Under the pieces are notes generated by a model. The model had not been told where the DNA came from and did not search any database. It saw nothing but the letters and a program-made list of their open reading frames with translations. The translations under genes and the position numbers were made by a program. A stretch of 29,803 nucleotides of DNA from Armatimonadota bacterium (lineage in GTDB: Bacteria; Sysuimicrobiota; Sysuimicrobiia; Sysuimicrobiales; Humicultoraceae), in NCBI GenBank assembly GCA_037446405.1, contig JBBIIQ010000002.1, forward strand, positions 1 to 29,803, in the 5' to 3' direction. Shown here one piece after another: positions 3,370 to 21,231 of this stretch (positions are counted from its first letter, which is position 1; each line of letters opens with the position of its first letter).

Positions 3370-4728
3370 TCACCCGCCCACCCGGCTGTGCCGGATCACC
3401 CGCGCGGGCACTCCCACGGCCACAGCGCCGGCGGGGACATCCTTGGTCACCACCGATCCCGCGCCCGTGCTCGCCCCCCTGCCGATACGCACCGGCGCCA
3501 CCAGCATGGTGTCGCTGCCGATGAAGGCCTCGTCCTCGATCACCGTGGGCCACTTCCTCCCGGAGCGGTCGCGCAGGTTGCAGGTGATGGTGCCAGCGCC
3601 GATGTTCACCCGTTCCCCCACGGTGGCGTCCCCCAGGTAGGACTTGTGGTGCACCTTGGTCCCGTCGCCGATGGTGCTGTTCTTCACCTCGGCGAAGTTG
3701 CCGATCTCCACCCGCCGCCCGATGCGCGAGCCAGGGCGGAGGTGGCTGTAGGGGCCGACGCGGCTGCCCTCGCCCACCGTGGACTGCACCACGGTGGAGG
3801 CCACCACCGTCACCCCGTCAGCGATCACGGCATCGACCAAGCGGGCGTGCGGCCCGATGATGCAGCCGCGGCCGATGCGGGTCTCCCCCTCCAGGGAGCT
3901 GCCCGGGTGGATTACCGTCTCCTCCCCGACCACCACCCCCGCGTGCACGTAGGTGGCCTGGGGATCGACGACGGTGACCCCGCCGTCCATGAGATGGCCC
4001 AGCAGCCGGGCGCGCATGGCCGCTTCGGCCCGGGCCAGGTCGCGCCGCGAGTTGACGCCCAGCACCTCCAGGGGGTCGTCCACGGCCAGGGCGTCCACGC
4101 GGGCGCCGCCCTGCAGCGCCCAGGCGATGACGTCGGTCAGGTAGTACTCCCCCTGGGCGTTGGCCGGCTGCACGTGCCCCAGCCCTTCCCCCAGCAGGGC
4201 CGGGTCGAAGACGTAGGTGCCAGCGTTGATCTCCCGGATCGCCCGCTCCCCCGGGGTGGCGTCGGCTTCCTCCACAATGCGCTGCACCAATCCGCCGGTG
4301 CCGCGGACGACGCGCCCGTAGCCGGTCGGGTCGGAGAGGTGCGCCGTGAGCAGGGTGATCCCCGGCCGGACGTCCTCCTGGTGCGCCACCAGGCGCCGCA
4401 GCGTCTGCGCGGTGAGCAGGGGGACGTCGCCGTAGAGCACCAGCACGGCCTCTGCCGCTCCCACCGCCTCCAGCCCCACCAGCACCGCGTGCGCCGTCCC
4501 CTTCTGCTCCACCTGGACGACGAAGGTGGCGCCGTCGCCGACCTCCGCCTGCACCGCTTCCGCGCCGCGGCCGACGACCACCACCGGCCGCGCCAGGCCC
4601 GCCTCTTCCAGAGCCGCCAGGACGTAGCGGATCATCGGCCGCCCGCAGATGCGGTGCAGCACCTTGGGAAGGCTGGAACGCATGCGCTTGCCCACGCCGG
4701 CGGCGAGGACGATGGGGCGGACAGTCAT
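3370..4728 (-). CDS. glmU: bifunctional UDP-GlcNAc pyrophosphorylase / glucosamine-1-phosphate N-acetyltransferase
   Basis: LAAGVGKRMRSSLPKVLH, QKGTAHAV, NAQGEYYLTD, hexapeptide-repeat C-terminal half, GNFAEVKNS, HKSYLGDA. Confidence 0.96.
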   Translation of the reverse strand: MTVRPIVLAAGVGKRMRSSLPKVLHRICGRPMIRYVLAALEEAGLARPVVVVGRGAEAVQAEVGDGATFVVQVEQKGTAHAVLVGLEAVGAAEAVLVLYGDVPLLTAQTLRRLVAHQEDVRPGITLLTAHLSDPTGYGRVVRGTGGLVQRIVEEADATPGERAIREINAGTYVFDPALLGEGLGHVQPANAQGEYYLTDVIAWALQGGARVDALAVDDPLEVLGVNSRRDLARAEAAMRARLLGHLMDGGVTVVDPQATYVHAGVVVGEETVIHPGSSLEGETRIGRGCIIGPHARLVDAVIADGVTVVASTVVQSTVGEGSRVGPYSHLRPGSRIGRRVEIGNFAEVKNSTIGDGTKVHHKSYLGDATVGERVNIGAGTITCNLRDRSGRKWPTVIEDEAFIGSDTMLVAPVRIGRGASTGAGSVVTKDVPAGAVAVGVPARVIRHSRVGG

Positions 4729-4920
4729 CTACGGAAGGCCTTCACGGGAACCTCCTGCCGCACAGAAGTTCTTGACCCCCCGGGGCAATCCTTCCCCGCG
4801 CCCGCCGCCCACCCGGCCGCAGGCCCGCCGTCCGGCGTGACGGCGCCTCCGCAGCGGAACCGCTGTCCGCGTGGCGCAAAATCAGCCGTCTGCCCGATAC
4901 CGGAGCGCCGCTGGCTTCCC

Positions 4921-4926
4921 TATCCT
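4921..4926 (+). promoter_or_regulatory. candidate -10 element (TATCCT) for a leaderless transcript of the 4934-6676 gene
   Basis: TANNNT hexamer exactly 7 nt before GTG 4934, which opens a signal-peptide-like stretch; no SD is present. Confidence 0.45.
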
Positions 4927-4933
4927 CTGGGAC

Positions 4934-6676
4934 GTGCGCAGCCTTTCCGCCTCGGTCCTCGTCCTGCTGCTCGCCGCCCTGGTCGTGCCGACGTCTGCGG
5001 GCGACGACCCCGCGGGTCCCGCCTCCCTGGAGGAGCGCCTGGCCGGGCTAGCCGTACGTACTGGCGCCCGGGCCGTCCTGCTCCCCGCTGTCGTGCACGC
5101 CCTGGGCCGTCAGGAGGCCGGTCTTCCCGGGCAGCCCGGGGCGTTCGACCGGGCTCTGGCCCGGCGCCTGACCGCGCGGCCGGAGCTGCGCCCGGTAGTG
5201 CGCGATCTTCTGCAGCGCTACCGACGGCTCCCCCGGGCGACGCTGGAGGTTGCCTTCGACCGCACCTGGCTGGGCCGCCCGCTGGAGCGCTCTCTGAGCG
5301 CAGAGGAACTGTGGGGTCTGCTCGCCCCCTTCCGGGGACTGCGCCCCGGAGGTGCAGGGCTGCCTGGGCTCCCCTCGCCCGCCGCATCTCCCGGACCCTC
5401 CCTTGCCACCCCGCGCCTCAGGGTGGAGGTGGATCGCAACATCCTCAGCCGCGCGCTCCTGCGGCCGCTCGACCTGCGGACCCTCGCCCCCAGGATCGAC
5501 CGTGTGTCGACGCCCCAGCCGGTAGACCCGCGGGTGGCCACCTGGCTGGAAGGGTTCTTCCTCCACGGGGATGAGGTGCGTCTGGACGGGTACGACCGGC
5601 GCCGGGTGGAGACGCTGGGCGTCGTGGCCATCGCCGGCACCCTGAAGCTCGGCTTCATGGTCCCCGGATGGGCGGCGCCGGGGCCGCACGTGGTGCAGGT
5701 GCTGCGGCTGGACGCCTCCGGAGCGATCGTCAGCCGGAGCAACCGGTTCGCCCTGCAGGTGGGCACCGGCCAGGCCACCCGCCGGTTGGATCGGCTGGAG
5801 CCCGCTCGCCTGCACGGAGGCGAGGTCCTCACCGTGGTGGGCCGCTTCCTCCCCTCCGACCTCATCCTCCTGGACGGGGCGCGGCTGCCCACCGCGCCGG
5901 GAACGCACTGGCAGCCCGGCCCCGCCGAGTGGGTGGGGACGCTCCGGGCGGTGATCGCCGAGACCACCGCGCCCGGCGAGCACCGCGTGGCGGTGGCCTC
6001 CGCAGACGGCCAGGTCACGCCGGCGCTGCCCCTTACCGTCCTCCCGCCGCGACGCCCCGTGGTCGTGCTGACCATTCCCCGGCTGCGCTGCGTGGACGAG
6101 ACGAACCCCGAGAAGATCGGGGTCGGCCCGCTGGAGAAGAACCTGCACGATGAGGTCTTCCTGGTGGTGGTCACCGAGATCGACGGCTCGGTGGCCGTGA
6201 AGACTACGCGCACCTACTCCGGATTCGACGACGGCGATGAGCAGGTCCTGGATGCCGCCGACGCGCAGGTGGTCGGGGCGGGCGGGGCGGCCGTGGACGT
6301 GCGGCGGCACCTGCGCTTCTACGTCGCCGCCTACGAGGACGACGGCATCCGCGGGAGTATCGCCAGCGCCTACGCTCAGCTGGCGGCGCAGGTGGCGGAG
6401 GCCATGGGCGACGCCCTGCGGGACACGCGCCACCCGGTGCTGGAGTCGCTGGCGGATGCGGCCGGCCGGCTGCTGGATGAGCTCGTCACCTTCCTGGGGG
6501 GAGCAGACTTCATCGGCGACGACGCCCGGGAGTGGACGGCCTCCGAGCTCCTGGCGCTGGCCGGGACGGGGCCGCGCAGCGAATCCCTCCGCCTGCTGTA
6601 CAACGGCAACCGACATGGGGACACCGGCGAGTACGCCGTGGACCTGACGCTGGTGGCCCGCCAGGGCACGCCGTAG
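4934..6676 (+). CDS. secreted hypothetical protein: signal peptide, two Ig-like (IPT/TIG-like) repeats, C-terminal C2-like beta domain
   Basis: Long ORF with gene-like codon use. Start moved from 4871 to GTG 4934 (MRSLSASVLVLLLAALVVPTSA, signal-peptide-like). Two beta-rich repeats ending PGxHxVxV; LRCVDET...HDEVFLVV motif. Domain calls are pattern recognition only. Confidence 0.75.
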   Translation: MRSLSASVLVLLLAALVVPTSAGDDPAGPASLEERLAGLAVRTGARAVLLPAVVHALGRQEAGLPGQPGAFDRALARRLTARPELRPVVRDLLQRYRRLPRATLEVAFDRTWLGRPLERSLSAEELWGLLAPFRGLRPGGAGLPGLPSPAASPGPSLATPRLRVEVDRNILSRALLRPLDLRTLAPRIDRVSTPQPVDPRVATWLEGFFLHGDEVRLDGYDRRRVETLGVVAIAGTLKLGFMVPGWAAPGPHVVQVLRLDASGAIVSRSNRFALQVGTGQATRRLDRLEPARLHGGEVLTVVGRFLPSDLILLDGARLPTAPGTHWQPGPAEWVGTLRAVIAETTAPGEHRVAVASADGQVTPALPLTVLPPRRPVVVLTIPRLRCVDETNPEKIGVGPLEKNLHDEVFLVVVTEIDGSVAVKTTRTYSGFDDGDEQVLDAADAQVVGAGGAAVDVRRHLRFYVAAYEDDGIRGSIASAYAQLAAQVAEAMGDALRDTRHPVLESLADAAGRLLDELVTFLGGADFIGDDAREWTASELLALAGTGPRSESLRLLYNGNRHGDTGEYAVDLTLVARQGTP

Positions 6677-6753
6677 ACGGGGAGGTCGGGGCGGCCGGCC
6701 GCCGGCGAGGATCACGGCAGGGGGCGCCGCGGCGCTGGCAGCGGGCAGGACGG

Positions 6754-6828
6754 TGGCTGGGGGGGCAGGCTTCGATCCTGCGCTGCCGGAGTCAAAGTCC
6801 GGTGTCCTCCCGACTAGACGACCCCCCA
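6754..6828 (-). tRNA. tRNA-Gln (anticodon TTG), CCA encoded
   Basis: Folded by hand: acceptor TGGGGGG/CCCCCCA (U1-A72, G73, CCA), D stem GTCT/GGAC, anticodon arm CCGGA-CTTTGAC-TCCGG, T stem GCAGG/CCTGC with loop ATCGAAG. Confidence 0.95.
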
Positions 6829-6838
6829 GCGCACCTGT

Positions 6839-6867
6839 ATTCTCCAGAGCCGCGGCGGGCCGGTCAA
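6839..6867 (-). promoter_or_regulatory. sigma70-type promoter for tRNA-Gln
   Basis: TTGACC (6867-6862), 17-nt spacer, GAGAAT (6844-6839); predicted start a few nt before the tRNA 5' end at 6828. Confidence 0.6.
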
Positions 6868-6871
6868 CCCC

Positions 6872-7270
6872 TCATGTCGCCTGCCCCTCCCCTGCCAGCG
6901 CGATCACGTCGACCTCCACCAGCGCTCCGCGCGGCAGGCGGCTGACCGCTACCGTGGTCCGCGCCGGCGGCTCCTCCTGGAAGAACGCCCCGTACTCCTC
7001 GTTCATCGGCCCGAAGTCGCTCATCTCCGCCAGGAAGACGGTGCACTTGACCACGCGCTGCAGCGACGACCCTGCCGCCTCCAGAATGGCCCGCACGTTC
7101 TCCAGGGCCTGGCGTGTCTGCTGCTTGATGTCCGTCCCCACCAGCTGGCCGGTCTGGGGGTCCAGGGCAATCTGGCCCGAGAGGAAAAGCAGTCCCCCCG
7201 CCCGCACCGCCTGCGCGTACGGCCCGATGGCCCGCGGCGCCCGGTCTGTGCTGACGATCGCTCGCTGCAT
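6872..7270 (-). CDS. ridA: RidA family reactive intermediate/imine deaminase
   Basis: APRAIGPYAQA, SGQIALDP, VVKCTVFL, PPARTTVAV(SR)LP, VEVDVIA. ATG 7270 is 8 nt after GGAGG. Confidence 0.93.
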   Translation of the reverse strand: MQRAIVSTDRAPRAIGPYAQAVRAGGLLFLSGQIALDPQTGQLVGTDIKQQTRQALENVRAILEAAGSSLQRVVKCTVFLAEMSDFGPMNEEYGAFFQEEPPARTTVAVSRLPRGALVEVDVIALAGEGQAT

Positions 7271-7332
7271 ACCCACAGCCTCCCCGTGTGACGTGGAGCA
7301 GGAGCCGGCGCAGGCCGTCTCCCGCCGCGTCG

Positions 7333-7338
7333 ATTATA
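7333..7338 (-). promoter_or_regulatory. consensus -10 element TATAAT upstream of ridA
   Basis: Perfect TATAAT in a GC-rich intergenic gap about 60 nt upstream of the ridA ATG; no clear -35. Confidence 0.55.
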
Positions 7339-7428
7339 CGCGCAGCGGCACACCTCTATACGCGATATCCACGGGGGCACACCCCCGCGCACCGGGGCAT
7401 GGGGCGGCAGAGGGCACGGAGAGGACGG

Positions 7429-7662
7429 CTACAGGGTCTGCAGCATGGCCCGCAGGCGGCGGCGCAACGCCTCGGGGGCGGGCTGTCCTGCGCACCGCTG
7501 CCGGATGACCTCCCGCAGCCGCAGCTCGAACTCGTGGTGCGGCCCGCAGTCGCGGCACAGCCGCAGGTGCTCCTGCAGGCGGCGGGAGGTCTCGGGGTCC
7601 AGCTCCCGATCCATGTACTGCCAGAGCAGGCGCACGACCTCCTCGCAGTGGACCGCGCTCAT
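7429..7662 (-). CDS. zinc-binding anti-sigma factor, RsrA/RshA-like (zf-HC2)
   Basis: HCEEVVRLLWQYMDREL...HLRLCRDC (HxxxCxxC ZAS motif). ATG 7662 has a strong SD and overlaps the sigma stop (ATGA). Confidence 0.9.
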   Translation of the reverse strand: MSAVHCEEVVRLLWQYMDRELDPETSRRLQEHLRLCRDCGPHHEFELRLREVIRQRCAGQPAPEALRRRLRAMLQTL

Positions 7663-8264
7663 GGTTCCCTCCCCTTCTCGTCCGGGGTGACGTGACCTGT
7701 GCGCAGGGCGTATTCCCACAGCGCCTGCTGCAGCAGCCGCCGCCCGCGGAAGAGGCGGGACATCACCGTGCCCAGGGGGACCTCCAGGATGTGGGCAATC
7801 TCCTTGTAGGTGAAGCCCTCCAGGTCCGCCAGGATGACCGCGGCGCGGAAGGCCTCCGGCAGCGAGGCCAGGGCCGCCTCCACGTCGGCGTCCATGACCG
7901 CCTGCAGGACGACCTCTTCCGGGTTCCCCTGGCGGCGCAGCGCCTCGCTGGCTAGGACGCGGCTGTAGAGGTACTGCTCCTCCACGTCCTCCTGGTCCAC
8001 CACCTCCGGCTCCCGGTCCGCCCTACGGTAGGCGTCGATGTACGCGTTCATCAGGATGCGGTACAGCCAGGCGCGGGCGTTGCTGCCTGGCTGGAAGGTG
8101 TGAAAGGAGCGCCAGGCCTTGAGGAAGGTCTCCTGCACCAGGTCTTCCGCGGCGTCCCGGTTGCGGGTCAGGCGCAGGGCCGCGCCGTAGAGGCGGTCGA
8201 GGTGCTCCTCCGCCAGCGCCGCAAACTCCCGGGCGGCCGGGGTCTCCGGCGAAGGCTGGTTCAC
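7659..8264 (-). CDS. ECF sigma factor, SigH/SigR-like (start uncertain: GTG 8264, GTG 8300 or ATG 8333, all in frame)
   Basis: LYGAALRLTRNRDAAEDLVQETFLKAWRSFHTFQPGSNARAWLYRILMN (region 2) and DLEGFTYKEIAHILEVPLGTVMSRLFRGRR (region 4.2); paired with a ZAS anti-sigma. The track's 7659-8729 ORF is over-extended. Confidence 0.92.
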   Translation of the reverse strand: MNQPSPETPAAREFAALAEEHLDRLYGAALRLTRNRDAAEDLVQETFLKAWRSFHTFQPGSNARAWLYRILMNAYIDAYRRADREPEVVDQEDVEEQYLYSRVLASEALRRQGNPEEVVLQAVMDADVEAALASLPEAFRAAVILADLEGFTYKEIAHILEVPLGTVMSRLFRGRRLLQQALWEYALRTGHVTPDEKGREP

Positions 8265-8572: not shown

Positions 8573-9034
8573 CTACTCTCCGCTGGGGGCGTGCCCGTAG
8601 ATCATGTCGTGCAGGGTGAGGCGCTCCAGCACCCCTTCCGCCGCGGCTTTCATGGCCATCCAGATAGGGCGGATGCCGCATCCCGGGAGGTAGGCGCAGT
8701 TGGGATCCTCCACCCCCACGCACCACCACGGCGCCGCCCCTTCCTCCAGGACCTCGAAGGCTTCCCGCAGGGTGATCTCGGCGGGAGGGCGGGAGAGGGT
8801 GTGCCCCCCGGCGGGCCCGCGCTTGCTGGCCACCAGCCCGGCCCGGCGCAGCGAGGCCATGATCTGGTTGAGGTACGACTCGGGCAGTCCCTGGCGGGCG
8901 GCGATCTCGTGGCTCTGCACGTAGCCCTCGCCGTAGTGGCGGGCCAGATCCACCAGCGCGCGCAGGCCGTACTCCGCGCGGCTGCTCACCTTCACCGCGC
9001 GCGCGCCGTGGTCGACCCGGGTACGCACCCTCAC
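8573..9034 (-). CDS. Rrf2 family transcriptional regulator with three C-terminal Cys (possible Fe-S)
   Basis: VSSRAEYGLRALVDLA, YLNQIMASLRRAGLVASKRGPAGGHTLSRPPAEITL; C-x7-C-x5-C. GTG 9034 overlaps the mec stop (GTGA); alternative start GTG 8995. Confidence 0.92.
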   Translation of the reverse strand: MRVRTRVDHGARAVKVSSRAEYGLRALVDLARHYGEGYVQSHEIAARQGLPESYLNQIMASLRRAGLVASKRGPAGGHTLSRPPAEITLREAFEVLEEGAAPWWCVGVEDPNCAYLPGCGIRPIWMAMKAAAEGVLERLTLHDMIYGHAPSGE

Positions 9035-9432
9035 TGCACGATCACGTCCTCTTCGCTCACACGGCCATCGACAATGCGAAAGCCCCGCACCTGTGGCCGC
9101 TCAGCCCGTTGCAGCGATATTATCACATAGACCGCCTCCGGGTAGAATGCCCTGGCCACGTCCGTGCGCGAGGGCGTGGCCTCGGAGGCGGTGTGTGAGT
9201 GGTAGATGCCCACGACCTCCAGCCCCTCCCGGTCCATCTCCCGCAGGAACTGCAACAGCTGCCGGTCGTCCAGCCGGTAGGTGTAGGGGCTCTGATCCAC
9301 GTTGTCCCCGCGGTACACGCGGAGGACCTGCCCATCCCGCCCGGCCAGCAGCCCGCAGCACTCCAGGGGAAAGGTCTCCCGGGCGTGGGCGATCATCTCC
9401 TCCAGGTGCTCCCGCGTCAGACGCAGCGCCAT
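9031..9432 (-). CDS. mec: Mec/Mov34 JAMM (M67) metalloprotease, CysO-cysteine peptidase-like
   Basis: PLECCGLLAG and YHSHTASEATPSRTD (E...HxH-x7-S-x2-D JAMM motif); next to cysM. Confidence 0.88.
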   Translation of the reverse strand: MALRLTREHLEEMIAHARETFPLECCGLLAGRDGQVLRVYRGDNVDQSPYTYRLDDRQLLQFLREMDREGLEVVGIYHSHTASEATPSRTDVARAFYPEAVYVIISLQRAERPQVRGFRIVDGRVSEEDVIVQ

Positions 9433-10362
9433 CTACCCGAACACCCTGGTGGAGAGGTAGCGGCCGCCGCCGTCGGGGAGGACGACCACGATCACGCCCT
9501 CGCCGACCTCGCGGGCCACCTGCAGCGCCGCCAGCATCGCCGCGCCGGCCGAGGGGCCGACCAGCCAGCCCTCCTCCCGGGCCAGACGGCGGGTCATGGC
9601 GTAGGCCGCCTCGGTGCCCACGGCGATCACCCGGTGGTGCACGCTGGGGTCGTAGATGCCCGGGACGATGGAGGTGGCCATGTGCTTCAACCCCTCCAGC
9701 CCGTGCAGCGGGCCGTCGGGCTCCACGGCGATGATCTGCACCTGCGGCCGCTGCTCGCGCAGCCGCCGCCCCACCCCCACCAGCGTGCCGGAGGTGCCCA
9801 GGCCGGCGACGAAGTGGGTGAGGCGGCCGTCGCTCTGGGCGATGATCTCCGCCCCCGTGGTGTCGTAGTGGGCGCGCCAGTTGGCCGGGTTGTTGTACTG
9901 GTCCAGCAGGACGTAGCGCTGCGGTGCCGCGGCAAACACCTGCCGCGCCAGACGGATGGCCCCGTCGGACCCCTCCAGCGGGTCGGAGGGGATGACGGTG
10001 GCGCCGAAGGCCTGGATGATCCGCCGCCGCTCCACGCTCACGTTCTGCGGGACGACCAGCTCCACCTGGTACCCTTTGGCCGCGCCGATCATGGCGTAGG
10101 CGATGCCCGCGTTCCCCGAGGAGGCATCCAGCAGGACCTTCCCCGGGGTGAGCCGGCCCTCGCGTTCCGCCTCCTCGATCATCCGCAGCACGGGGCGGTC
10201 CTTCACCGACCCTCCCGGGTTGAACCACTCGGCCTTGGCCAGGATCTCCACCCCGGGGGGAACGCCGGCCAGGCGCGTCACCCGCAGCAGCGGCGTGCGG
10301 CCGATGCACCCCAGGAGGTGGCTGCCGAGGCGGTGGGCGGGTGAGGCCGGGCGGGAGGACAC
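9433..10362 (-). CDS. cysM: PLP-dependent cysteine synthase, CysM-type (candidate O-phosphoserine sulfhydrylase)
   Basis: IGRTPLL, NPGGSVKDR (PLP Lys), SSGNAG, QYNNPAN, GLGTSGT, GPSAGA, PDGGGRYLS. Its stop abuts the mec ATG. Confidence 0.85.
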   Translation of the reverse strand: MSSRPASPAHRLGSHLLGCIGRTPLLRVTRLAGVPPGVEILAKAEWFNPGGSVKDRPVLRMIEEAEREGRLTPGKVLLDASSGNAGIAYAMIGAAKGYQVELVVPQNVSVERRRIIQAFGATVIPSDPLEGSDGAIRLARQVFAAAPQRYVLLDQYNNPANWRAHYDTTGAEIIAQSDGRLTHFVAGLGTSGTLVGVGRRLREQRPQVQIIAVEPDGPLHGLEGLKHMATSIVPGIYDPSVHHRVIAVGTEAAYAMTRRLAREEGWLVGPSAGAAMLAALQVAREVGEGVIVVVLPDGGGRYLSTRVFG

Positions 10363-10375
10363 GGCCGCGCGTGCC

Positions 10376-11215
10376 TCAGTCGTCGAAGAGGACGGTGGGC
10401 TCCGGGTAGAGACGTACCCGGTGGGCCAGCAGGCGCGCGTGGACCAGGTCGTGCAGGGCGGCGTTCTTCTCCTCCACCGTGCCGGGGGCGCGCAGCAGCT
10501 CCAGCGGCAGGTTCACCCGCAGCGCCCGGTTGGGGATGACGTGGCGCGTGATGCCGGTGGGCAGCTTCTGCGGGAGGACGGCCAGGCGCAGGATCTGCGC
10601 CTTGGTGAACCGGGGGAAGACCACCAGCACGCCAATCCGGTCGTACTCGGCGCGCAGGAGGCGGCGGTCCGTGGTGAGGACGCGATAGATGGGGACCCGC
10701 CCGTTGTAGGCGTCCACCACGGCGCGCATGGCGCCCACGCGCGCGGAGAAAGACCGCCCCGCCCGCACGCCCAGCACGCCCTGCTCCCAGACCAGGCCGC
10801 AGGCCAGACGGCCGTCGCGCAGCGCGCCGGCCAGCCGGGCGGCGCTGTCCAGAGGGACCAGCGGCAGCCGCGGCAGCAGGCGGGCCAGCGCGGGGCCGTC
10901 CTCCCGCAGCAGGTGGTGCCACACCTCCAGGCGGACCCCCGCCGCGGCGTAGTCCACGACCTGGAGGAGGTGGTGCGGCACGCCCAGGCGCTGCAGGGCG
11001 CTGGTGCGGTTCGCCCCGTCCAGGACCACGTAGCCGCCGCCGGGCAACTCCGCCGCCACCGGCGGGTTGCGCAGCACCTCCTCGCTCTGCAGCTGCTCCA
11101 CCAGGGCGGCGACGCGCCGCGGGTCGGCGTCCTCATGCAGGTGGACCTGCGCCGCCGGGACGATGCGCAGGGTGGGGAGGGGCTGAGCGGAGGGGAGGCG
11201 GGCGGGAGGCGTCAC
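10376..11215 (-). CDS. ParB-fold protein, SbnI/SerK-like free L-serine kinase (candidate)
   Basis: C-terminal part of the track's 10376-12619 ORF; true start GTG 11215 overlaps the CBS stop (GTGA), 279 aa. LHEDADPRR, LRNPP, YVVLDGANR, VWHH, VVDAYNG, LPTGITRHVIPNRALRVNLPLELL, RLYPEPTVLF parallel the SbnI segments as I recall them. Confidence 0.8.
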   Translation of the reverse strand: MTPPARLPSAQPLPTLRIVPAAQVHLHEDADPRRVAALVEQLQSEEVLRNPPVAAELPGGGYVVLDGANRTSALQRLGVPHHLLQVVDYAAAGVRLEVWHHLLREDGPALARLLPRLPLVPLDSAARLAGALRDGRLACGLVWEQGVLGVRAGRSFSARVGAMRAVVDAYNGRVPIYRVLTTDRRLLRAEYDRIGVLVVFPRFTKAQILRLAVLPQKLPTGITRHVIPNRALRVNLPLELLRAPGTVEEKNAALHDLVHARLLAHRVRLYPEPTVLFDD

Positions 11216-12612
11216 GGGCGGCCGAGGACCCTGGCCAGGTGGTCGATGACGTCGATCTTGGTGACGATGCCGACGACACGCCCGCTGTCCACGACGATGG
11301 CCGCGTTGGCGCTGAGGAAGATCTCCGCCAGGTCGCCCACCGGCGTCTCCGGCGTGACCACGGGGGCGCTGGGGTTGACCAGGAGGGTGATGGGGTCGTC
11401 GAGGCCGTGTCCCCCCTCCAGCAGGTAGGAGAGCAGATCCACCTCGCTGACCATGCCCACCAGGCCGCCGTCGGCCACCACGGGCAGCTGGGAGACGTCG
11501 TACTGCTTCATCTTGGCGATCACCGCGCGCACCTGCTCGTCCGGCGTCGCGGTGATCAGCGGCAGGCCCTTGGCCCGCAGCAGGTCGGCCACGGTGCCCA
11601 TCTCCGCTTCCAGGTAGCCGTTCTCCCGCATCCAGTCGTCGTCGAAGAGTTTGGAGAGGTAGCGAAACCCGGAGTCGGGGAGGATGACCACGACCCGCTT
11701 CCCCTCCCCGTGGTCCGGCAGGCCGCGCAGGTACCGCAGGGCCCCGGCCACGGCGCTGCCGCTGCTGCCGCCGCAGAACAGCCCCTCCTCCCGCACCAGG
11801 CGGCGGGCCATGAGGAAGGACTCCCGGTCGGTCACCGGCACCACCTCGTCCACGACGCGGAAGTCCATGGTCCCGGGGAGGAAGTCCTCGCCGATCCCCT
11901 CCACCTTGTAGGTGTGCGCCTCCCCCAGCCTGCCGCTGCGGAAGTACTCGCTGTAGACCGAGCCCACCGGGTCCACGCCCACCACCTTCACCTGGGGGTT
12001 GCGCTCCTTGAGGAAGCGTCCCACCCCGGAGATGGTCCCCCCGGTGCCCATGCCGCAGACGAAGATGTCCACGCGGCCGCCGCTGTCCTCCCAGATCTCC
12101 GGTCCGGTGGTCTCGTAGTGGGCGGCGGGGTTGTGCGGGTTGTGGTACTGGTCTGCGTACCAGGCCTGGGCGGTCTCCTCCGCCAGCCGCCGGCTGACGC
12201 TGTAGTAGGAGCGCGGGTCCTCGGGGGCCACCGCCGTGGGCGTGATCACCACCCTGGCGCCGAAGGCGCGCAGCAGGCGGATCTTCTCCTCCGACATCTT
12301 GTCCGGCATGACGAAGATGCAGCGGTAGCCGCGCACGGCCGCCACCAGGGCCAGGCCCATCCCGGTGTTGCCCGAGGTGGCCTCGACGATGGTCCCCCCC
12401 GGCCGCAGCTCCCCCTGCGCCTCCGCCGCGGCCACCATGCGCACGCCGATGCGGTCCTTCACCGAGCCTCCGGGGTTGAGAAACTCCAGCTTGGCCACCA
12501 CGTCCGCGCGCACGCCCCGCGTCACCCGGTGCAGGCGCACCAGGGGGGTGTGCCCCACCACGTCCAGGATGCTGTCGTGGATGCGCTCGCCGGCGCGCGT
12601 CTGGACCTTCAC
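11212..12612 (-). CDS. cbs: cystathionine beta-synthase with C-terminal CBS domain pair
   Basis: KLEFLNPGGSVKDRIG, EATSGNTG, GMGTGGT, YKVEGIGEDF, GGSSGS, PDSGFRYLSK, then CBS repeats (YDVSQLPVV, VGIVTKIDVI). Start GTG 12612 is 7 nt after GGAGG and overlaps the upstream stop. Confidence 0.9.
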   Translation of the reverse strand: MKVQTRAGERIHDSILDVVGHTPLVRLHRVTRGVRADVVAKLEFLNPGGSVKDRIGVRMVAAAEAQGELRPGGTIVEATSGNTGMGLALVAAVRGYRCIFVMPDKMSEEKIRLLRAFGARVVITPTAVAPEDPRSYYSVSRRLAEETAQAWYADQYHNPHNPAAHYETTGPEIWEDSGGRVDIFVCGMGTGGTISGVGRFLKERNPQVKVVGVDPVGSVYSEYFRSGRLGEAHTYKVEGIGEDFLPGTMDFRVVDEVVPVTDRESFLMARRLVREEGLFCGGSSGSAVAGALRYLRGLPDHGEGKRVVVILPDSGFRYLSKLFDDDWMRENGYLEAEMGTVADLLRAKGLPLITATPDEQVRAVIAKMKQYDVSQLPVVADGGLVGMVSEVDLLSYLLEGGHGLDDPITLLVNPSAPVVTPETPVGDLAEIFLSANAAIVVDSGRVVGIVTKIDVIDHLARVLGRP

Positions 12613-12902
12613 CCGCCACCCTCCCCCGCCGTCCCCCCGGCCATGGCCGGAATGATGGACACCTCGTCCTGCGGCCCCACCGGGGTCTCCTCCCCGCGCA
12701 GGGTGCGCATCTCGTCGCCGTTGACGAAGACGTTGATGTAGGCGCGCACGTGCCCCTGCTCGTCCAGCACCTGCGCTCCCACCCCCGGGTAGGCCGCGCG
12801 CAGGTTCGCCAGCACCTCCCGCACCGTGCTCCCCGGCACCTGCACGCGGCTCTGCCCGCCGGTCTGGCGCCGCAGCGGCGCGGGAACGTAGACGGTTGCC
12901 AC
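12609..12902 (-). CDS. MoaD/ThiS/CysO-family ubiquitin-like sulfur carrier with a C-terminal extension after GG
   Basis: VYVPAPLRRQTGG...YINVFVNGDEMR...DEVSIIPAMAGG followed by TAGEGGG. GTG 12902 is 8 nt after AGGAGG. Confidence 0.88.
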   Translation of the reverse strand: MATVYVPAPLRRQTGGQSRVQVPGSTVREVLANLRAAYPGVGAQVLDEQGHVRAYINVFVNGDEMRTLRGEETPVGPQDEVSIIPAMAGGTAGEGGG

Positions 12903-12921
12903 GGTCATCACCTCCTGCCCA

Positions 12922-12976: not shown

Positions 12977-14119
12977 TCATGGCTGCAGCGCCTGCTCCAG
13001 GTCCGCGATCAGGTCGTCGGGGTGCTCCAGCCCCACCGAGAGGCGCAGCAGCCCCTCCTCCACCGCCAGGGGCGTTCCCGCCACGCTGGCGTGGGTCATC
13101 GACGCCGGGTGGTCGATCAGCGACTCCACCCCGCCCAGGCTCTCCGCCAGGAGGAAGAGCTTCGTCCGCGCCGCCACCCGCCGCGCCGCCGCGCCGCCGC
13201 CGTGGACGACAAAGGAGACCATCCCGCCGAAGCAGCGCATCTGCCGCGCGGCCAGCTCGTGGCCGGGATGGTCCGCCAGCCCCGGGTAGAGGACCCTGCT
13301 GACCCGCGGAGCCTGCCGCAGGAACGTCGCCACCCGGACGGCGTTCTGGGCGTGGCGCTCCATGCGTACCGCCAGGGTGCGCAGCCCGCGCAGGACCAGC
13401 CAGCAGTCCAGCGGGCCGGGGACGGCGCCGACCGCATTCTGCAGGAACTTCAGCCGCTCGTACAGGTCGGCGCGGGAGGTGAGCACCGCCCCGCCCACCA
13501 CGTCGCTGTGGCCCCCCAGGTACTTCGTCGTGGAGTGGACCACCAGGTCGGCGCCCAGGCGCAGCGGCTGCTGCCCGTAAGGGGTGGCGAAGGTGTTGTC
13601 CACGGCCACCAGCGCCCCGGCGGCGTGGCCCACGTCGGCCAGGCGGGCGATGTCCAGGATCCTCAGGTAGGGGTTGGTGGGCGTCTCCAGGAAGAGCAGC
13701 CGCGTGCGCTCGCGCATCGCCCGCTCCACCGCCGGCACCTCGCGCATGTCCACGAAGGTGGCCTCGATACCGTAGCGCTGCAGGACGCGGACGAAGAGGC
13801 GGTGCGTGCCGCCGTAGACGTCGTCCGGGGCCACCACGTGGTCACCGGGGGAGAGCAGCAGGGCCACCGCGGTGATAGCCGCCATCCCCGAGGCGAAGGC
13901 CAGCCCGTACTCCGCCTCCTCCAGGGAGGCCAGCGCCCGCTCCAGGGCGCTGCGCGTGGGGTTAGCGGTGCGGGAGTAGTCGTACCCGCGGTGCTCCCCC
14001 GGGGCCTGCTGCACGTAGGTGGAAGTCTGGTAGATGGGAGGGATCACCGCCCCGGTGGTGGGATCGGGCGCCTGGCCGTCGTGGATGGCCCGCGTCTCGA
14101 AGTGGTGGGAGGACGGCAT
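12977..14119 (-). CDS. cystathionine gamma-lyase/synthase (Cys/Met metabolism PLP enzyme)
   Basis: FETRAIHDGQ, PPIYQTSTY, YSRTANPT, FASGMAA, YGGT, ETPTNP, VDNTFATP, HSTTKYLGGHSDV, AESLGGVESL, LRLSVGLE. Confidence 0.93.
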   Translation of the reverse strand: MPSSHHFETRAIHDGQAPDPTTGAVIPPIYQTSTYVQQAPGEHRGYDYSRTANPTRSALERALASLEEAEYGLAFASGMAAITAVALLLSPGDHVVAPDDVYGGTHRLFVRVLQRYGIEATFVDMREVPAVERAMRERTRLLFLETPTNPYLRILDIARLADVGHAAGALVAVDNTFATPYGQQPLRLGADLVVHSTTKYLGGHSDVVGGAVLTSRADLYERLKFLQNAVGAVPGPLDCWLVLRGLRTLAVRMERHAQNAVRVATFLRQAPRVSRVLYPGLADHPGHELAARQMRCFGGMVSFVVHGGGAAARRVAARTKLFLLAESLGGVESLIDHPASMTHASVAGTPLAVEEGLLRLSVGLEHPDDLIADLEQALQP

Positions 14120-14826
14120 CAGGAGAGCACCGCCTCCGCGGCCAGCGCGGCCAGCCGCTCTTCCACCTGCGGCCGCGCCACCGGCAGCAGCTCCAGGGCG
14201 TACACCTCGGCGAAGCGCCGCGCGTAGGCGTCGGCCACCGCGGCAAAGGAGACCTCCCGGCCCAGCAGCCGCGCCATGGAGGTGACAGGGCGGTTCAGGC
14301 CGCAGGGATTGATCCAGGTGAAGGGCTCCAGGTCCGTGGTCACGTTCAGGGCCGCCCCGTGCATGGTCACCCTCCGCTTCACCGCCACGCCCACAGCGGC
14401 CAGCTTGGCCTCCCCCACCCAGACGCCAGGGAAACCGCGCACCCGGACGGCGCTGATCCCAAAGTCGGCGACGGTGCGGATCACCGACTCCTCCAGCGCC
14501 CGCATGAAGCGCACCACGTCCTCGTCCATGGCCCGCAGGTCGAGGATGGGATAGGCGACCAGCTGCCCAGGCCCGTGGTAGGTGGCGCCGCCGCCGCGCT
14601 CGATCTGGTAGATCTCGACGCCGCGCTGCCGCAGCACGTCGGGGGAGAGCAGCAGGTGCCCCCGATCCCCGGACCGCCCCAATGTGATCACAGGGTGATG
14701 CTGCAGCAGCAGGACCACGTCGGGAATCGCGGCCTGCTGGCGGGCGGCGACCAGCCGCCGCTGCAGCGTCCAGGCGTCGGCGAAGGGCGTCAGCCCCTCA
14801 AGGGTCACTAGCCACGCATCCCGCAT
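14119..14826 (-). CDS. lipB: lipoyl(octanoyl) transferase
   Basis: LLQHHPVITLGRS, ERGGGATYHGPGQLVAYPI, KLAAVGV, TMHGAALNV, INPCGL. Start moved to ATG 14826 (AGGAG 5 nt upstream); stop overlaps the CGL ATG (TGATG). Confidence 0.92.
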   Translation of the reverse strand: MRDAWLVTLEGLTPFADAWTLQRRLVAARQQAAIPDVVLLLQHHPVITLGRSGDRGHLLLSPDVLRQRGVEIYQIERGGGATYHGPGQLVAYPILDLRAMDEDVVRFMRALEESVIRTVADFGISAVRVRGFPGVWVGEAKLAAVGVAVKRRVTMHGAALNVTTDLEPFTWINPCGLNRPVTSMARLLGREVSFAAVADAYARRFAEVYALELLPVARPQVEERLAALAAEAVLS

Positions 14827-14850
14827 CTTGGCTCCTATTCTAGCCGGGTG

Positions 14851-15026
14851 CCCGCGGCCGGGCGCGGCCGCGGGCGGGACCGACCTGCGCGGTCGGACGC
14901 TCACGGCAATGTCGTCTGGGCTGGTCGGGCTCAGGGAGCCCGACGGGAGGGCGAAGGCCGCTAGGCCTCCGCCCGGAGACAGATGCAGGAGCGAGGGCGC
15001 GGTGCCAGGGGGTGCGCAGTTCCTGG
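14851..15026 (-). promoter_or_regulatory. highly structured leader (five tandem hairpins) upstream of the lipB-cys operon
   Basis: Stems at 14851-14874 (10 bp), 14880-14896 (6 bp), 14924-14944 (9 bp), 14949-14974 (11 bp, one G-U on the minus strand) and 15005-15026 (5 bp). No known RNA family recognised. Confidence 0.4.
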
Positions 15027-15048
15027 ACGCACGGACATAGCAGCAGGC

Positions 15049-15057
15049 ATCATAGCA
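15049..15057 (-). promoter_or_regulatory. extended -10 promoter TGcTATGAT
   Basis: TGn-TATGAT just downstream of the ABC ATPase stop, pointing into the leader and operon. Confidence 0.55.
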
Positions 15058-15063
15058 TGGCAT

Positions 15064-19372: not shown

Positions 19373-19876
19373 CTATCCGCTCCTCCCTCGCACCGCCGCG
19401 TACCAGCGGCGCAGCAGGAAGATCTGGGCCGCGTGGTAGGAGTCGTGGGTGGCCAGATCGGCGACGACGTCCAGCTTCGTCCAGGGACCTGTCCCCCCGG
19501 GCCGGTAGGGCTCGGCCAGCGCTTCGGCCGGAAGGCGGCGGATTGTGGCGGCACAGGCCTCGTGTGCCCGCCCCAGGTCCTCCTGGACGTCGATCCAGGC
19601 CTCAGTGGTCGGTGCGACGGGGCGCCACTCCTCCTCCCCGGGGTCGACCACGGCTGCCGGATCGAGCCACCGCGCCACCTTCCAACACCAGTAGGCCATA
19701 TGCCAGGCGATCTCGGCGATGGTGTGCTGCGCGGGAACGGGCCGCCAGTGCGCCTCCTCCGGGGTGACGCCTTCCAGGGCCGGGCGGACGCCCTTTCCCG
19801 ACCAGTTCCCTTCCAGGTACGTCCCCTGCAGCCGCTGCGCCAGCCACGCGGGCAGGTCGATCCCGGCGGCGGTCAT
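19373..19876 (-). CDS. DinB family protein
   Basis: [13 protein letters not shown] and [12 protein letters not shown] His triad; ATGA overlap with the trpB2 stop. Confidence 0.8.
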
Positions 19877-21231
19877 GGCTGCAGCGCCGCCAGCTCGCGC
19901 GTCGCCGCGGCCACCGCCTCCGCGGGGTAGGCGTAGTCCTCCAGGCGGCCGCTCAGGTACTCCTCGTAGGCCTGCAGGTCGAAGTGACCATGCCCGCTGA
20001 GGTTGAAGAGGATGACGCGCGGGACCCCCAGCTCCCGCGCCTCCAGGGCCTCGTCGATGACCCGGCGCACGGCGTGCGCCGACTCAGGCGCGGGGACGAT
20101 CCCCTCGCTGCGGGCGAACTGCACCGCCGCCTCGAAGACCGCGCGCTGGCCGTAGGCGGCGGCCTCCACGTAGCCGGCGTCGTAGAGCAGGCACAGCGAT
20201 GGTGCGTCGCCGTGGTAGCGCAGGCCGCCGGCGTGGATCCCCGGTGGGACAAAGGTGTGCCCCAGGGTGTACATCTTGAACAGCGGGGTGGTGGCCGCGG
20301 TGTCGCCGAAGTCGTAGAGGTAGCGGCCGCGGGTGAGCGACGGACACGCCTCCGGCTCCACGGCCACGAAGCGGACGTCCCTGCCCCTGAACCGGTCCGC
20401 CAGGAACGGATAGGCCAGGCCCGCGTAGTTGCTCCCCCCGCCCACGCAGCCGATGACCACGTCGGGGTACTCCCCGGCCAGCTCCATCTGCCGCCTGGCC
20501 TCCAGCCCGATGACGGTCTGGTGCAGGAGGACGTGGTTGGCCACGCTGCCGATGGAGTACTTGGTGTCCTCGTGCGTGGCCGCGTCCTCCACCGCCTCGC
20601 TGATGGCGATCCCCAGGCTCCCCGGTGAGTGCGGGTCCCGCTCGCGGATCGTGCGCCCGGCGCGGGTCTGCTCACTGGGACTGGGCAGGACCTGCGCCCC
20701 CCAGGTCTCCATGATCACGCGGCGGTAGGGCTTCTGCTCGTAGGAGACGCGCACCATGTAGACGGTGCACTCCAGGCCGAAGAGGCGGCAGGCCAGGGCC
20801 AGCGCGCTGCCCCACTGGCCGGCACCGGTCTCCGTGGTCAGGCGACGCACCCCCGCCTCCCTGTTGTAGAAAGCCTGGGCCACCGCGGTGTTGGGCTTGT
20901 GGCTACCCGCGGGGCTCGTCCCCTCGTACTTGTAGTAGATGTGCGCCGGCGTCCCCAGGGCCCGCTCCAGGCGGTGGGCGCGGTAGAGCGGTGTGGGGCG
21001 CCACAGCCGGTAGATCTCGCGCACCGGCTCGGGGATCTCCACCTCCCGCTCGGTGGAGACCTCCTGCTGGATGATCTGCGGCGGGAAGAGCGGGGCCAGG
21101 TCATCCGGGCCGATGGGCTGCTTGGTGGCCGGATGGAGCACCGGGGGGAGCGGCAGCGGCAGGTCCGCCAGGATGTTGTACCAGGCCTGCGGCAGGTCGC
21201 GCTCGTCCAGCACAAACTTGGTCTGCGGCAT
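19873..21231 (-). CDS. trpB2: TrpB2 (TrpB-like PLP enzyme, tryptophan synthase beta type 2)
   Basis: [87 protein letters not shown] 21231 after GGAGG; no trpA in the window. Confidence 0.93.

What the first reader, a model, noticed from the sequence alone, without database searches (positions are those of the whole stretch)
10376..11215. SbnI/SerK-like free serine kinase embedded in a bacterial cysteine operon
Seen: 279-aa gene (GTG 11215) coupled to CBS and directly upstream of cysM, masked in the track by a 747-aa ORF. Known: S. aureus SbnI (ATP-dependent, for staphyloferrin B) and Thermococcus SerK (ADP-dependent, for cysteine) are ParB-fold kinases making O-phospho-L-serine from free serine, with catalytic Glu in LHE and Asp in DGxHR. 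From memory of SbnI the match spans the whole protein: LHETFEPLR/LHEDADPRR, YMVIDGVHR/YVVLDGANR, TWQH/VWHH, VVASYSG/VVDAYNG, VPAGVTRF...LQVPLALL/LPTGITRH...VNLPLELL, RCYTEKVYL/RLYPEPTVL. Inference: it supplies OPS for cysteine synthesis rather than for a siderophore, and automated pipelines would probably mislabel it as a ParB protein.
Basis: partly seen in the sequence, partly recalled or inferred. Interest (0 to 1): 0.9.

Follow-up and report, generated by a model that had tools for sequence, protein, structure and literature searches.

The report
Bacterial free-serine kinase in cysteine operon
An unannotated 279-residue gene inside a cysteine-synthesis operon of an uncultured CSP1-3 (Sysuimicrobiota) bacterium is a full-length relative of the only known free-serine kinases (SbnI, SerK). 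It most likely makes the O-phosphoserine that the next enzyme turns into cysteine, in a phylum that has no serine acetyltransferase.

Summary
A real 279-aa gene (GTG 11215 to stop 10376, minus strand) is hidden inside a spurious 747-aa ORF. Its start overlaps the stop of the cystathionine beta-synthase (CBS) gene (GTGA), and it ends 13 nt before cysM.

Sequence, profile and predicted fold all match SbnI and SerK over both domains, while ParB, Noc and sulfiredoxin match only the first ~80 residues. The catalytic Glu (E28) and the Asp and Arg of DGxHR (D66, R70) are invariant in 42 diverse homologues. The His of that motif is always Asn, Thr or Ser.

The operon is CGL–CysO–CBS–kinase–CysM–Mec(JAB)–Rrf2. 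It is conserved across the phylum: the kinase is in 53 of 54 high-quality genomes and cysE in none. Relatives carry the kinase fused to CysO, to JAB, or to a phosphoglycerate-dehydrogenase catalytic domain. In some Chloroflexota it sits next to TrpB2, an O-phosphoserine-dependent tryptophan synthase.

It is a separate, unnamed family, far below the NCBIfam cut-offs for SbnI and SerK and with no Pfam hit. Databases label its members "hypothetical" or "ParB N-terminal domain". I found no paper describing it. Activity, phosphate donor and direction are untested.

This scan reached the same reading before on at least eight other genomes.

The parts
10376..11215 (-). SbnI/SerK-like putative free L-serine kinase, 279 aa (P0002). 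Catalytic candidates are E28 (in LHE) and D66/R70 (in DGANR); the C-domain carries a T223-R224-H225 motif.
   Evidence: GC3 is 0.96. phmmer gives SbnI 6e-12 and SerK 6e-9. The family profile gives SbnI 8e-24. The AF2 model has pLDDT 91.8. Foldseek places SerK and SbnI on top over the full length.
11212..11215 (-). GTGA overlap of the CBS stop and the kinase start (translational coupling).
   Evidence: Read directly in the sequence and the ORF coordinates.
11212..12612 (-). Cystathionine beta-synthase (PALP domain plus two CBS domains). Its GTG start overlaps the cysO stop.
   Evidence: TIGR01137 scores 548 bits against a cut-off of 510. Pfam finds PALP and CBS. The start was located at 12612.
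12609..12911 (-). CysO-like ThiS/MoaD sulfur carrier. It ends ...AMAGG followed by a 7-residue tail.
   Evidence: PF02597 scores 48.6 bits and is the only ThiS hit in the genome. Translation.
12977..14119 (-). Cystathionine gamma-lyase-type Cys/Met-metabolism PLP enzyme.
   Evidence: PF01053 scores 497 bits.
9433..10362 (-). CysM-type cysteine synthase, the presumed O-phosphoserine sulfhydrylase. Lys226 sits at the position of M. tuberculosis CysM Arg220 and E. coli CysM Arg210.
   Evidence: TIGR01138 scores 363 bits and TIGR01136 344.6 bits. The EGLKH motif is conserved in orthologues.
9031..9432 (-). Mec-like JAB/JAMM metalloprotease.
   Evidence: PF14464 scores 97 bits.
8573..9034 (-). Rrf2-family regulator closing the conserved operon core.
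   Evidence: PF02082 scores 122 bits. It is conserved next to JAB in related loci.
19873..21231 (-). Stand-alone TrpB2, a possible second consumer of O-phosphoserine about 9 kb away.
   Evidence: NF009057 scores 745 bits. TrpB2 lies directly upstream of the kinase homologue in six Chloroflexota loci.

Best explanation
The gene encodes a free L-serine kinase of a distinct bacterial clade of the SbnI/SerK superfamily.

Proposed mechanism, by analogy with SerK E30 and SbnI E20/D58 (inferred): the ParB/sulfiredoxin-like N-domain binds the nucleotide phosphate donor through the DGANR loop. Glu28 acts as the base on the serine hydroxyl. The C-domain, with a T-R-H motif shared with SerK, closes over the amino acid. 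The product is O-phospho-L-serine.

Proposed pathway (inferred): the next gene product, a CysM-type PLP enzyme, condenses O-phosphoserine with thiocarboxylated CysO. The JAB protease Mec then releases cysteine, as in M. tuberculosis. CysO is charged by an E1-like enzyme encoded elsewhere in the genome.

The phylum has no serine acetyltransferase, so phosphorylation replaces acetylation as the way to activate serine.

Shown here: homology, fold, conserved residues, operon structure, gene fusions and phyletic pattern. Inferred: the substrate, the donor (ATP, ADP or other) and the direction of flux.
For: Homology:
- phmmer to PDB gives SbnI at 6e-12 and SerK at 6e-9, covering residues 13-245.
- A 27-sequence profile gives SbnI 8.4e-24 and SerK 6.9e-10. 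The next hit is a ParB at E 0.25.
- An AF2 model (pLDDT 91.8) matches SerK and SbnI over the full length in Foldseek.

Conserved residues:
- H27, E28, D66, G67, R70, W99, H101, R178, G221, R230, R268, Y270 and E272 are invariant in 42 homologues of 30-74% identity.
- E28 aligns to SerK E30 and SbnI E20. D66 aligns to SbnI D58.

Operon:
- The order CGL-CysO-CBS-kinase-CysM-JAB-Rrf2, with overlapping junctions, is seen in this window.
- It is conserved across Sysuimicrobiota loci.

Fusions:
- CysO-kinase fusions exist (P0038 and others).
- A JAB-kinase fusion exists (P0156).
- At least seven clusters carry a PGDH catalytic domain fused to the kinase. The N-terminal part best matches TIGR01327, and the kinase motifs are intact.

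Other O-phosphoserine users:
- TrpB2 lies about 0.5 kb upstream in six Chloroflexota loci.
- TrpB2 enzymes use O-phosphoserine (Busch 2014, as cited in PMC11917138).

Phyletic pattern:
- The kinase is in 88 of 94 genomes and 53 of 54 high-quality genomes of the phylum.
- cysE is above cut-off in 1 of 94 genomes and 0 of 54 high-quality genomes.
- No cysK is above cut-off in five high-quality genomes. In genome G001 the operon's CysM is the only CysK/M-family gene.
- CysM keeps a basic residue at the position of Mtb Arg220.
- A ThiF/MoeZ-type E1 is present in the genome.
Against: - There is no biochemical evidence for any member of this clade.
- The His of the DGxHR motif of SbnI and SerK is Asn, Thr or Ser in all 42 sequences checked.
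- Scores are far below the NCBIfam equivalog cut-offs: SbnI 60.9 against 350, SerK 39.1 against 380. Pfam finds nothing.
- O-phosphoserine may also come from 3-phosphoglycerate. A full-length PGDH sits next to a class-V aminotransferase in relatives, so the kinase may not be essential.
- About half of the Chloroflexota and Latescibacterota loci show no cysteine- or phosphoserine-related neighbour.
- One genus keeps kinase-JAB-Rrf2 but has moved or lost CysM and CysO.
- O-phosphoserine preference of this CysM is inferred from M. tuberculosis, and the residue here is Lys, not Arg.
- The genomes compared are relatives, not independent samples.
Confidence: 0.75

Rival explanations
1. It is a serine/phosphoserine phosphotransferase whose main role is not cysteine synthesis but linking serine to 3-phosphoglycerate. 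It would either assimilate serine (Ser -> O-phosphoserine -> 3-phosphohydroxypyruvate -> 3PG) or run in reverse as a substitute for the missing phosphoserine phosphatase.
For: - PGDH-kinase fusions occur in Chloroflexota.
- No canonical serB is above cut-off in five high-quality genomes, while serA and an adjacent class-V aminotransferase are present.
- Makino 2016 proposed serine assimilation through SerK (PMC5120207).
- GapMind 2026 proposes kinase-type replacements of SerB (PMC13759103).
- The phylum includes users of the reductive glycine pathway, where serine is a central intermediate (abstract of PMC11604079).
Against: - In this phylum the gene is translationally coupled inside a cysteine operon and is fused to CysO or JAB, not placed with serA.
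- The reverse reaction is thermodynamically unfavourable, as noted in PMC13759103.
- The TIGR00338 model misses many non-canonical SerB enzymes: only 8 of 14 control genomes pass its cut-off.
Confidence: 0.12
2. It is a kinase-fold enzyme with another substrate. Candidates are homoserine or threonine, or the C-terminal carboxylate of CysO activated as an acyl phosphate, by analogy with sulfiredoxin phosphorylating a protein sulfinate.
For: - It is physically fused to CysO in some relatives.
- The phosphate-binding motif is altered to DG[AV][NT]R.
- No E1-like gene lies in the operon.
Against: - In the fusions CysO is N-terminal, so its Gly-Gly is not free until it is cleaved. CysO is also fused to CBS in other relatives, which points to polyprotein-style processing rather than a specific partnership.
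- A ThiF/MoeZ-type E1 is present in the own genome and in relatives.
- The C-domain T-R-H motif is shared with SerK.
- The PGDH and TrpB2 associations point to serine and phosphoserine.
Confidence: 0.06
3. It is mainly a regulator. It would be a ParB-like DNA-binding or ligand-sensing protein, comparable to the second role reported for SbnI, controlling the sulfur operon.
For: NCBIfam names SbnI a bifunctional transcriptional regulator/O-phospho-L-serine synthase. The fold derives from ParB.
Against: - There is no HTH or other DNA-binding domain; ParB and Noc align only to about 80 N-terminal residues.
- The catalytic residues are invariant, including in the enzyme fusions.
- The operon already has an Rrf2 regulator and an ECF sigma factor.
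- The gene is translationally coupled in the middle of the enzyme genes.
Confidence: 0.04

Closest known systems
SbnI (Staphylococcus aureus and S. pseudintermedius; PDB 5UJE, 5UJD, 6NR6; NCBIfam NF033589)
   Same: It has the same two-domain fold over the whole length (Foldseek E 2e-17, 263 columns, TM 0.72/0.79). It is the best sequence and profile match. The LHE Glu, the Asp and Arg of DGxHR, the W-x-H motif, the G-x-T-R motif and the C-terminal R-x-Y-x-E are conserved.
   Different: - Identity is only about 22%, and the score of 60.9 bits is far below the 350-bit cut-off.
- The His of DGVHR is Asn.
- The context is a cysteine operon (CysO/CysM/Mec/CBS/CGL), not a staphyloferrin B cluster with SbnA/SbnB.
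- There is no evidence here for heme sensing or DNA binding.
SerK (Thermococcus kodakarensis TK0378; PDB 5X0B and related entries; P. furiosus 1VK1; NCBIfam NF053625)
   Same: It has the same fold (Foldseek E 8e-18, TM 0.70/0.80). The catalytic Glu aligns (E30 to E28), and the C-domain T-R-H-V motif is shared. SerK has the same physiological logic: free serine to O-phosphoserine for cysteine synthesis (PMC5120207).
   Different: - Identity is about 17%, with 39 bits against a 380-bit cut-off.
- SerK is archaeal, ADP-dependent and has a DGHHR motif.
- Its partner is a sulfide-using sulfhydrylase, not a protein-thiocarboxylate system.
- Makino 2016 reported no clear bacterial homologues.
M. tuberculosis Mec-CysO-CysM pathway (Rv1334-1336)
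   Same: The operon has a ThiS-fold carrier, a CysM-type PLP enzyme with a basic residue at the Arg220 position, and a JAB protease. An E1-like enzyme is encoded elsewhere.
   Different: - M. tuberculosis has no dedicated serine kinase. Its O-phosphoserine is taken to come from SerA/SerC; this rests on general knowledge and on scan note e1-5317737, and I did not check it in a paper.
- Here a kinase gene lies inside the operon.
- CBS and CGL are inserted, and the carrier has a post-GG tail or is fused to the next protein.
SerBK / DUF1015 (GapMind 2026, PMC13759103)
   Same: It is another proposed bacterial serine kinase with remote structural similarity to SbnI, linked to serA and serC.
   Different: It is a different family. 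The DUF1015 proteins are associated with serine synthesis and utilisation, not with CysO/CysM. No Pfam family, DUF1015 included, matched this protein at E <= 0.1.

Membership tests
SbnI/SerK free L-serine kinases | Two-domain architecture: a ParB/sulfiredoxin-like N-domain plus a SerK-type C-domain | tested here: met
   Foldseek gives full-length matches to 5x0b, 6nr6, 5uje and 1vk1 (226-266 columns, TM 0.62-0.81). ParB and Srx match only about 80 residues.
SbnI/SerK free L-serine kinases | Catalytic Glu (SerK E30, SbnI E20) | tested here: met
   E28 aligns to it and is invariant in 42 of 42 homologues. The PDB entries of the SerK E30A/E30Q mutants identify the residue.
SbnI/SerK free L-serine kinases | Asp and Arg of the DGxHR loop (SbnI D58) | tested here: met
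   D66, G67 and R70 are invariant in 42 of 42.
SbnI/SerK free L-serine kinases | His of the DGxHR loop | tested here: not met
   Position 69 is Asn in 28, Thr in 13 and Ser in 1, and never His. SbnI has DGVHR and SerK DGHHR.
SbnI/SerK free L-serine kinases | Score above the curated equivalog cut-offs (NF033589 SbnI, NF053625 SerK), or a Pfam ParB_N or SerK_C hit | tested here: not met
   It scores 60.9 against 350 and 39.1 against 380 bits, with no Pfam family at E <= 0.1. It belongs to the superfamily but is a separate clade.
SbnI/SerK free L-serine kinases | Phosphorylates free L-serine to O-phospho-L-serine | not testable with these tools
   This needs an enzyme assay. Only context supports it.
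ParB/Noc CTP-dependent DNA clamps | HTH DNA-binding domain and GERRxR CTP-binding motif | tested here: not met
   Only the N-domain aligns (about 80 columns, E >= 2e-4). The motif is DGANR. The profile hit to ParB 7o0n has E 0.25.
Sulfiredoxin | Catalytic Cys in the GCHR motif, in a single ~100-aa domain | tested here: not met
   The equivalent loop is DGANR with no Cys. The protein has an extra 180-residue C-domain.
CysO-CysM-Mec thiocarboxylate cysteine pathway (context) | A ThiS-fold carrier with Gly-Gly, a CysM-type PLP enzyme, a JAB hydrolase and an E1-like activator | tested here: met
   PF02597 is found at 12609-12911, with AMAGG plus a 7-residue tail. CysM is, JAB, and ThiF at G000:C105. 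O-phosphoserine specificity of this CysM is not testable here.

The most novel reading that the evidence does not exclude
This clade is the general O-phosphoserine supplier of whole bacterial lineages (Sysuimicrobiota, many Chloroflexota and others) that have given up O-acetylserine. It would feed every O-phosphoserine-dependent PLP enzyme they carry: CysM with CysO thiocarboxylate, TrpB2, and perhaps the CBS-type enzyme. When fused to a PGDH domain it would form a serine <-> 3-phosphoglycerate shunt. The altered DG[AV][NT]R loop would reflect a phosphate donor different from those of SbnI (ATP) and SerK (ADP).
Probability: 0.35. Interest if true: 0.7.

Novelty: new variant of a known kind. 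Interest (0 to 1): 0.6.

Why it matters
Free-serine kinases are known only from a few hyperthermophilic archaea (SerK) and a staphylococcal siderophore cluster (SbnI). Makino 2016 stated that clear bacterial homologues of SerK were not found.

This family has about 1,000 clusters at 50% identity and is nearly universal in one phylum. If active, it would put serine phosphorylation into the core cysteine metabolism of widespread soil, groundwater and hot-spring bacteria.

It would explain how these bacteria make cysteine without CysE. It would also give a physiological source of O-phosphoserine for CysM-type and TrpB2 enzymes, and correct hundreds of "hypothetical" or "ParB" annotations and pathway gaps in metabolic reconstructions of MAGs.

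Tried and rejected
- Pfam scan of the protein: no family at E <= 0.1.
- The search for related loci with the 42-sequence alignment A2 failed because no stretch was conserved enough. I repeated it with a 10-sequence subset.
- Verstraete 2018 (PMC5912478) is not held. The roles of SbnI E20 and D58 therefore rest on the PDB mutant entries for SerK, on the alignments, and on my own knowledge.
- I considered that the kinase replaces the E1 and activates CysO. This is rejected as the main reading because a ThiF/MoeZ gene is present and CysO is also fused to CBS.
- I considered that CysM might be an O-acetylserine enzyme. This is unlikely because cysE is absent from the phylum.
- I looked for a canonical SerC. 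Only weak hits were found, but an AGXT-type aminotransferase lies next to serA.
- Several short contigs gave no useful context.
- Literature searches for a bacterial serine kinase linked to CysO/CysM, Chloroflexota or CSP1-3 found nothing.

Full report
**1. The observation**

The window is contig C2 of a 1.98-Mb MAG. It is 77% complete and has about 72% GC.

The ORF list shows a 747-aa ORF at 10376..12619 on the minus strand. GC by codon position splits it in two:
- The last 279 codons (11215 to 10376) have a coding pattern (0.83/0.46/0.96).
- The upstream part has 0.98/0.71/0.44. That is the signature of reading the CBS gene out of frame.

The GTG at 11215 overlaps the TGA of CBS (GTGA). The kinase stop lies 13 nt before the GTG of cysM at 10362. 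Homologues begin at the same place, some with ATG. The next in-frame start would delete the conserved LHE motif.

**2. What the protein is**

Family models:
- Pfam finds nothing.
- NCBIfam finds only SbnI (60.9 bits, cut-off 350) and SerK (39.1 bits, cut-off 380).

Sequence and profile searches against PDB:
- phmmer gives SbnI (6nr6, 6e-12, residues 13-245) and SerK (5x0b, 6e-9), and nothing else meaningful.
- A profile of 27 homologues raises SbnI to 8.4e-24 over positions 18-255. SerK stays at 6.9e-10. The best ParB is at E 0.25.

Structure:
- An AlphaFold2 model has mean pLDDT 91.8 and pTM 0.88.
- Its nine best Foldseek hits are all SerK or SbnI chains (E 8e-18 to 4e-16, 226-266 aligned columns, TM 0.62-0.72 by query and 0.70-0.81 by target).
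- Noc, ParB and sulfiredoxin align to about 80 residues only.
That is not what is seen.

Conserved residues:
- E28 aligns with SerK E30, the residue mutated in PDB entries 5x0e/5x0j/5x0k, and with the Glu of LHE in SbnI.
- D66 and R70 align with the Asp and Arg of DGVHR (SbnI) and DGHHR (SerK).
- In 42 homologues spanning 30-74% identity, these positions are invariant: H27, E28, P51, D66, G67, R70, W99, H101, R178, G221, R230, R268, Y270 and E272.
- T223-R224-H225 is nearly invariant and matches the TTRHV of SerK.
- The one consistent departure is the His of DGxHR. It is Asn (28), Thr (13) or Ser (1), and never His.

I therefore file the protein in the SbnI/SerK superfamily, as a separate clade and not as an equivalog of either enzyme.

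**3. Context in the window**

On the minus strand the genes run in this order:
- a LipB-like gene (14119-15063)
- a cystathionine gamma-lyase-type enzyme (12977-14119)
- a ThiS/CysO-like carrier (12609-12911)
- CBS (11212-12612)
- the kinase
- a CysM-type enzyme (9433-10362)
- a JAB/Mec protease (9031-9432)
- an Rrf2 regulator (8573-9034)
- further on, an ECF sigma factor and RidA

The junctions are overlapping or nearly so.

CysM aligns with M. tuberculosis CysM (3dwg) without the loop insertion typical of CysK. It carries Lys226 where Mtb has Arg220 and E. coli CysM has Arg210. The EGLKH motif is conserved in orthologues. The CBS gene has the usual VEGIG at that place.

A ThiF/MoeZ-type E1 is encoded elsewhere in the genome.

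**4. Comparative evidence**

Family size and labels:
- The family has 1,066 clusters at 50% identity with E <= 1e-3, and 172 with E <= 1e-30.
- Where named, members are called "hypothetical protein" or "ParB N-terminal domain-containing protein".
- The nearest ESM Atlas clusters are unnamed and mostly from Chloroflexota.

Taxonomy:
- Titles of related records place the genome in CSP1-3 / Candidatus Sysuimicrobiota.
- Homologues of 38-46% identity occur in Chloroflexota (Anaerolineae, Thermoflexus, Caldilineae, Ardenticatenales), Latescibacterota, Dormiibacterota and Eisenbacteria.
- Within the phylum the gene is present in 88 of 94 species genomes and 53 of 54 high-quality ones.

Four lines tie the protein to O-phosphoserine:

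(a) Synteny. LipB-(CGL)-CysO-(CBS)-kinase-CysM-JAB-Rrf2 recurs throughout the phylum. Some lineages lack CBS and CGL, so the core is CysO-kinase-CysM-JAB-Rrf2. Several Chloroflexota loci keep CBS, CysO, CysM or JAB nearby.

(b) Fusions.
- CysO-kinase fusions of 371-376 aa exist.
- A JAB-kinase fusion exists.
- At least seven distinct clusters carry an N-terminal D-2-hydroxyacid dehydrogenase whose best NCBIfam match is PGDH TIGR01327, over model positions 1-307. All kinase motifs are intact in them.

(c) TrpB2. In six Chloroflexota loci a TrpB2 gene (NF009057, above 700 bits) ends about 0.5 kb upstream on the same strand. TrpB2 also lies 5-9 kb away in this window and in five other Sysuimicrobiota loci. 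TrpB2 enzymes are O-phosphoserine-dependent (Busch 2014, cited in PMC11917138).

(d) Phyletic complement.
- cysE is above cut-off in 1 of 94 genomes, an 89%-complete one, and in 0 of 54 high-quality genomes.
- cysK is above cut-off in none of five high-quality genomes. In genome G001 (97% complete, 4 contigs) the operon's CysM is the only CysK/M-family gene.

Without O-acetylserine, an O-phosphoserine-using CysM is the simplest reading.

**5. What remains open**

- O-phosphoserine can probably also be made from 3-phosphoglycerate. Four of five high-quality genomes have a full-length PGDH. In G013 an AGXT-type class-V aminotransferase lies directly upstream of it in the same open frame.
- A canonical SerB was not found, but that model misses many known variants.
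- The kinase could therefore also, or instead, serve serine-3PG interconversion. The PGDH fusions fit this. I give that rival 0.12.
- In one genus the operon is LipB-kinase-JAB-Rrf2, and the only CysK/M-like gene lies elsewhere.
- About half of the non-Sysuimicrobiota loci have uninformative neighbours.
- The phosphate donor cannot be read from sequence. The His-to-Asn/Thr change lies in the phosphate-binding loop and may matter.
- The genomes compared are kin, so the counts are not independent tests.

**6. Comparison with what is known, and novelty**

The chemistry has precedents in T. kodakarensis SerK (PMC5120207) and in SbnI: free serine to O-phosphoserine, consumed by a PLP enzyme.

New elements, as far as the held literature shows:
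- a large bacterial clade with its own motif signature
- placement inside a CysO/CysM/Mec protein-thiocarboxylate operon
- near-universality in a phylum without cysE
- associations with PGDH and TrpB2

The two CSP1-3 genome papers do not mention it. The ParB-fold survey lists only SerK, SbnI and Srx as enzymes.

I rate it a new variant of a known kind, with interest 0.6.

**7. Earlier notes of this scan**

The same family in the same kind of operon was noted and followed up on at least eight other genomes, with the same reading. These are AI notes and not independent evidence. Everything stated here rests on the calls cited.

Noticed in passing
window 12609-12665 (-); L005 3318-4433; L007 4157-5854; L008 4355-6001: The CysO-like carrier does not end at its Gly-Gly. 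Here a 7-residue tail follows AMAGG. In relatives the carrier is fused in frame to the kinase (371 aa) or to CBS (548-565 aa). This implies that a protease, presumably the operon's JAB/Mec, must expose the Gly-Gly in a ubiquitin-precursor-like way.
   Followed up: partly
L108 998-3745 (-) (G013:C56): In a same-genus genome an AGXT-type class-V aminotransferase (BhcA-like, 325 bits) and a full-length PGDH (668 bits) lie in one 915-aa open frame. This is either a SerC-like/SerA fusion or two genes with no intervening stop. It is the likely 3PG-to-phosphoserine route of the phylum.
   Followed up: partly
P0166, P0179, P0211, P0228, P0249, P0251, P0258, P0272 (Chloroflexota MAGs; L106 184-1914, L107 5142-6836): These proteins have a PGDH catalytic and NAD domain fused to the serine-kinase-like domain in place of the usual ASB/ACT regulatory domains. 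All kinase motifs are intact.
   Followed up: partly
L071, L076, L077, L078, L085, L101 (about 4600-7860 in each): These Chloroflexota loci share a conserved block: TrpB2, a small MGMT-type DNA_binding_1 gene (plus DUF559 in L071), the kinase homologue, an NfeD-like gene and a flotillin/Band 7 gene.
   Followed up: partly
L033, L034, L035, L038; G026/G029/G030/G033 (L109-L112): One genus of the phylum has LipB-kinase-JAB-Rrf2-RidA with no CysO or CysM in the operon. Its single CysK/M-family gene lies on another contig and is only about 37% identical to both CysM and CBS of this window.
   Followed up: partly
five high-quality genomes of the phylum (G013, G001, G080, G047, G069): No canonical serB (TIGR00338) and no cysK (TIGR01139) are above cut-off. 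How these bacteria dephosphorylate phosphoserine, or whether they make serine from glycine instead, is open.
   Followed up: no
window 14119-15063 (-): A LipB/LplA-type catalytic-domain gene (PF21948) is the conserved first gene of the sulfur operon across the phylum. It is preceded by an ABC-transporter ATPase. Its link to cysteine synthesis is unexplained.
   Followed up: no
G011:C121:4415-4897: This is the only cysE above cut-off in the phylum (247 bits). It sits in an 89%-complete genome with 3% contamination, so it may be a contaminant contig or a recent acquisition.
   Followed up: no
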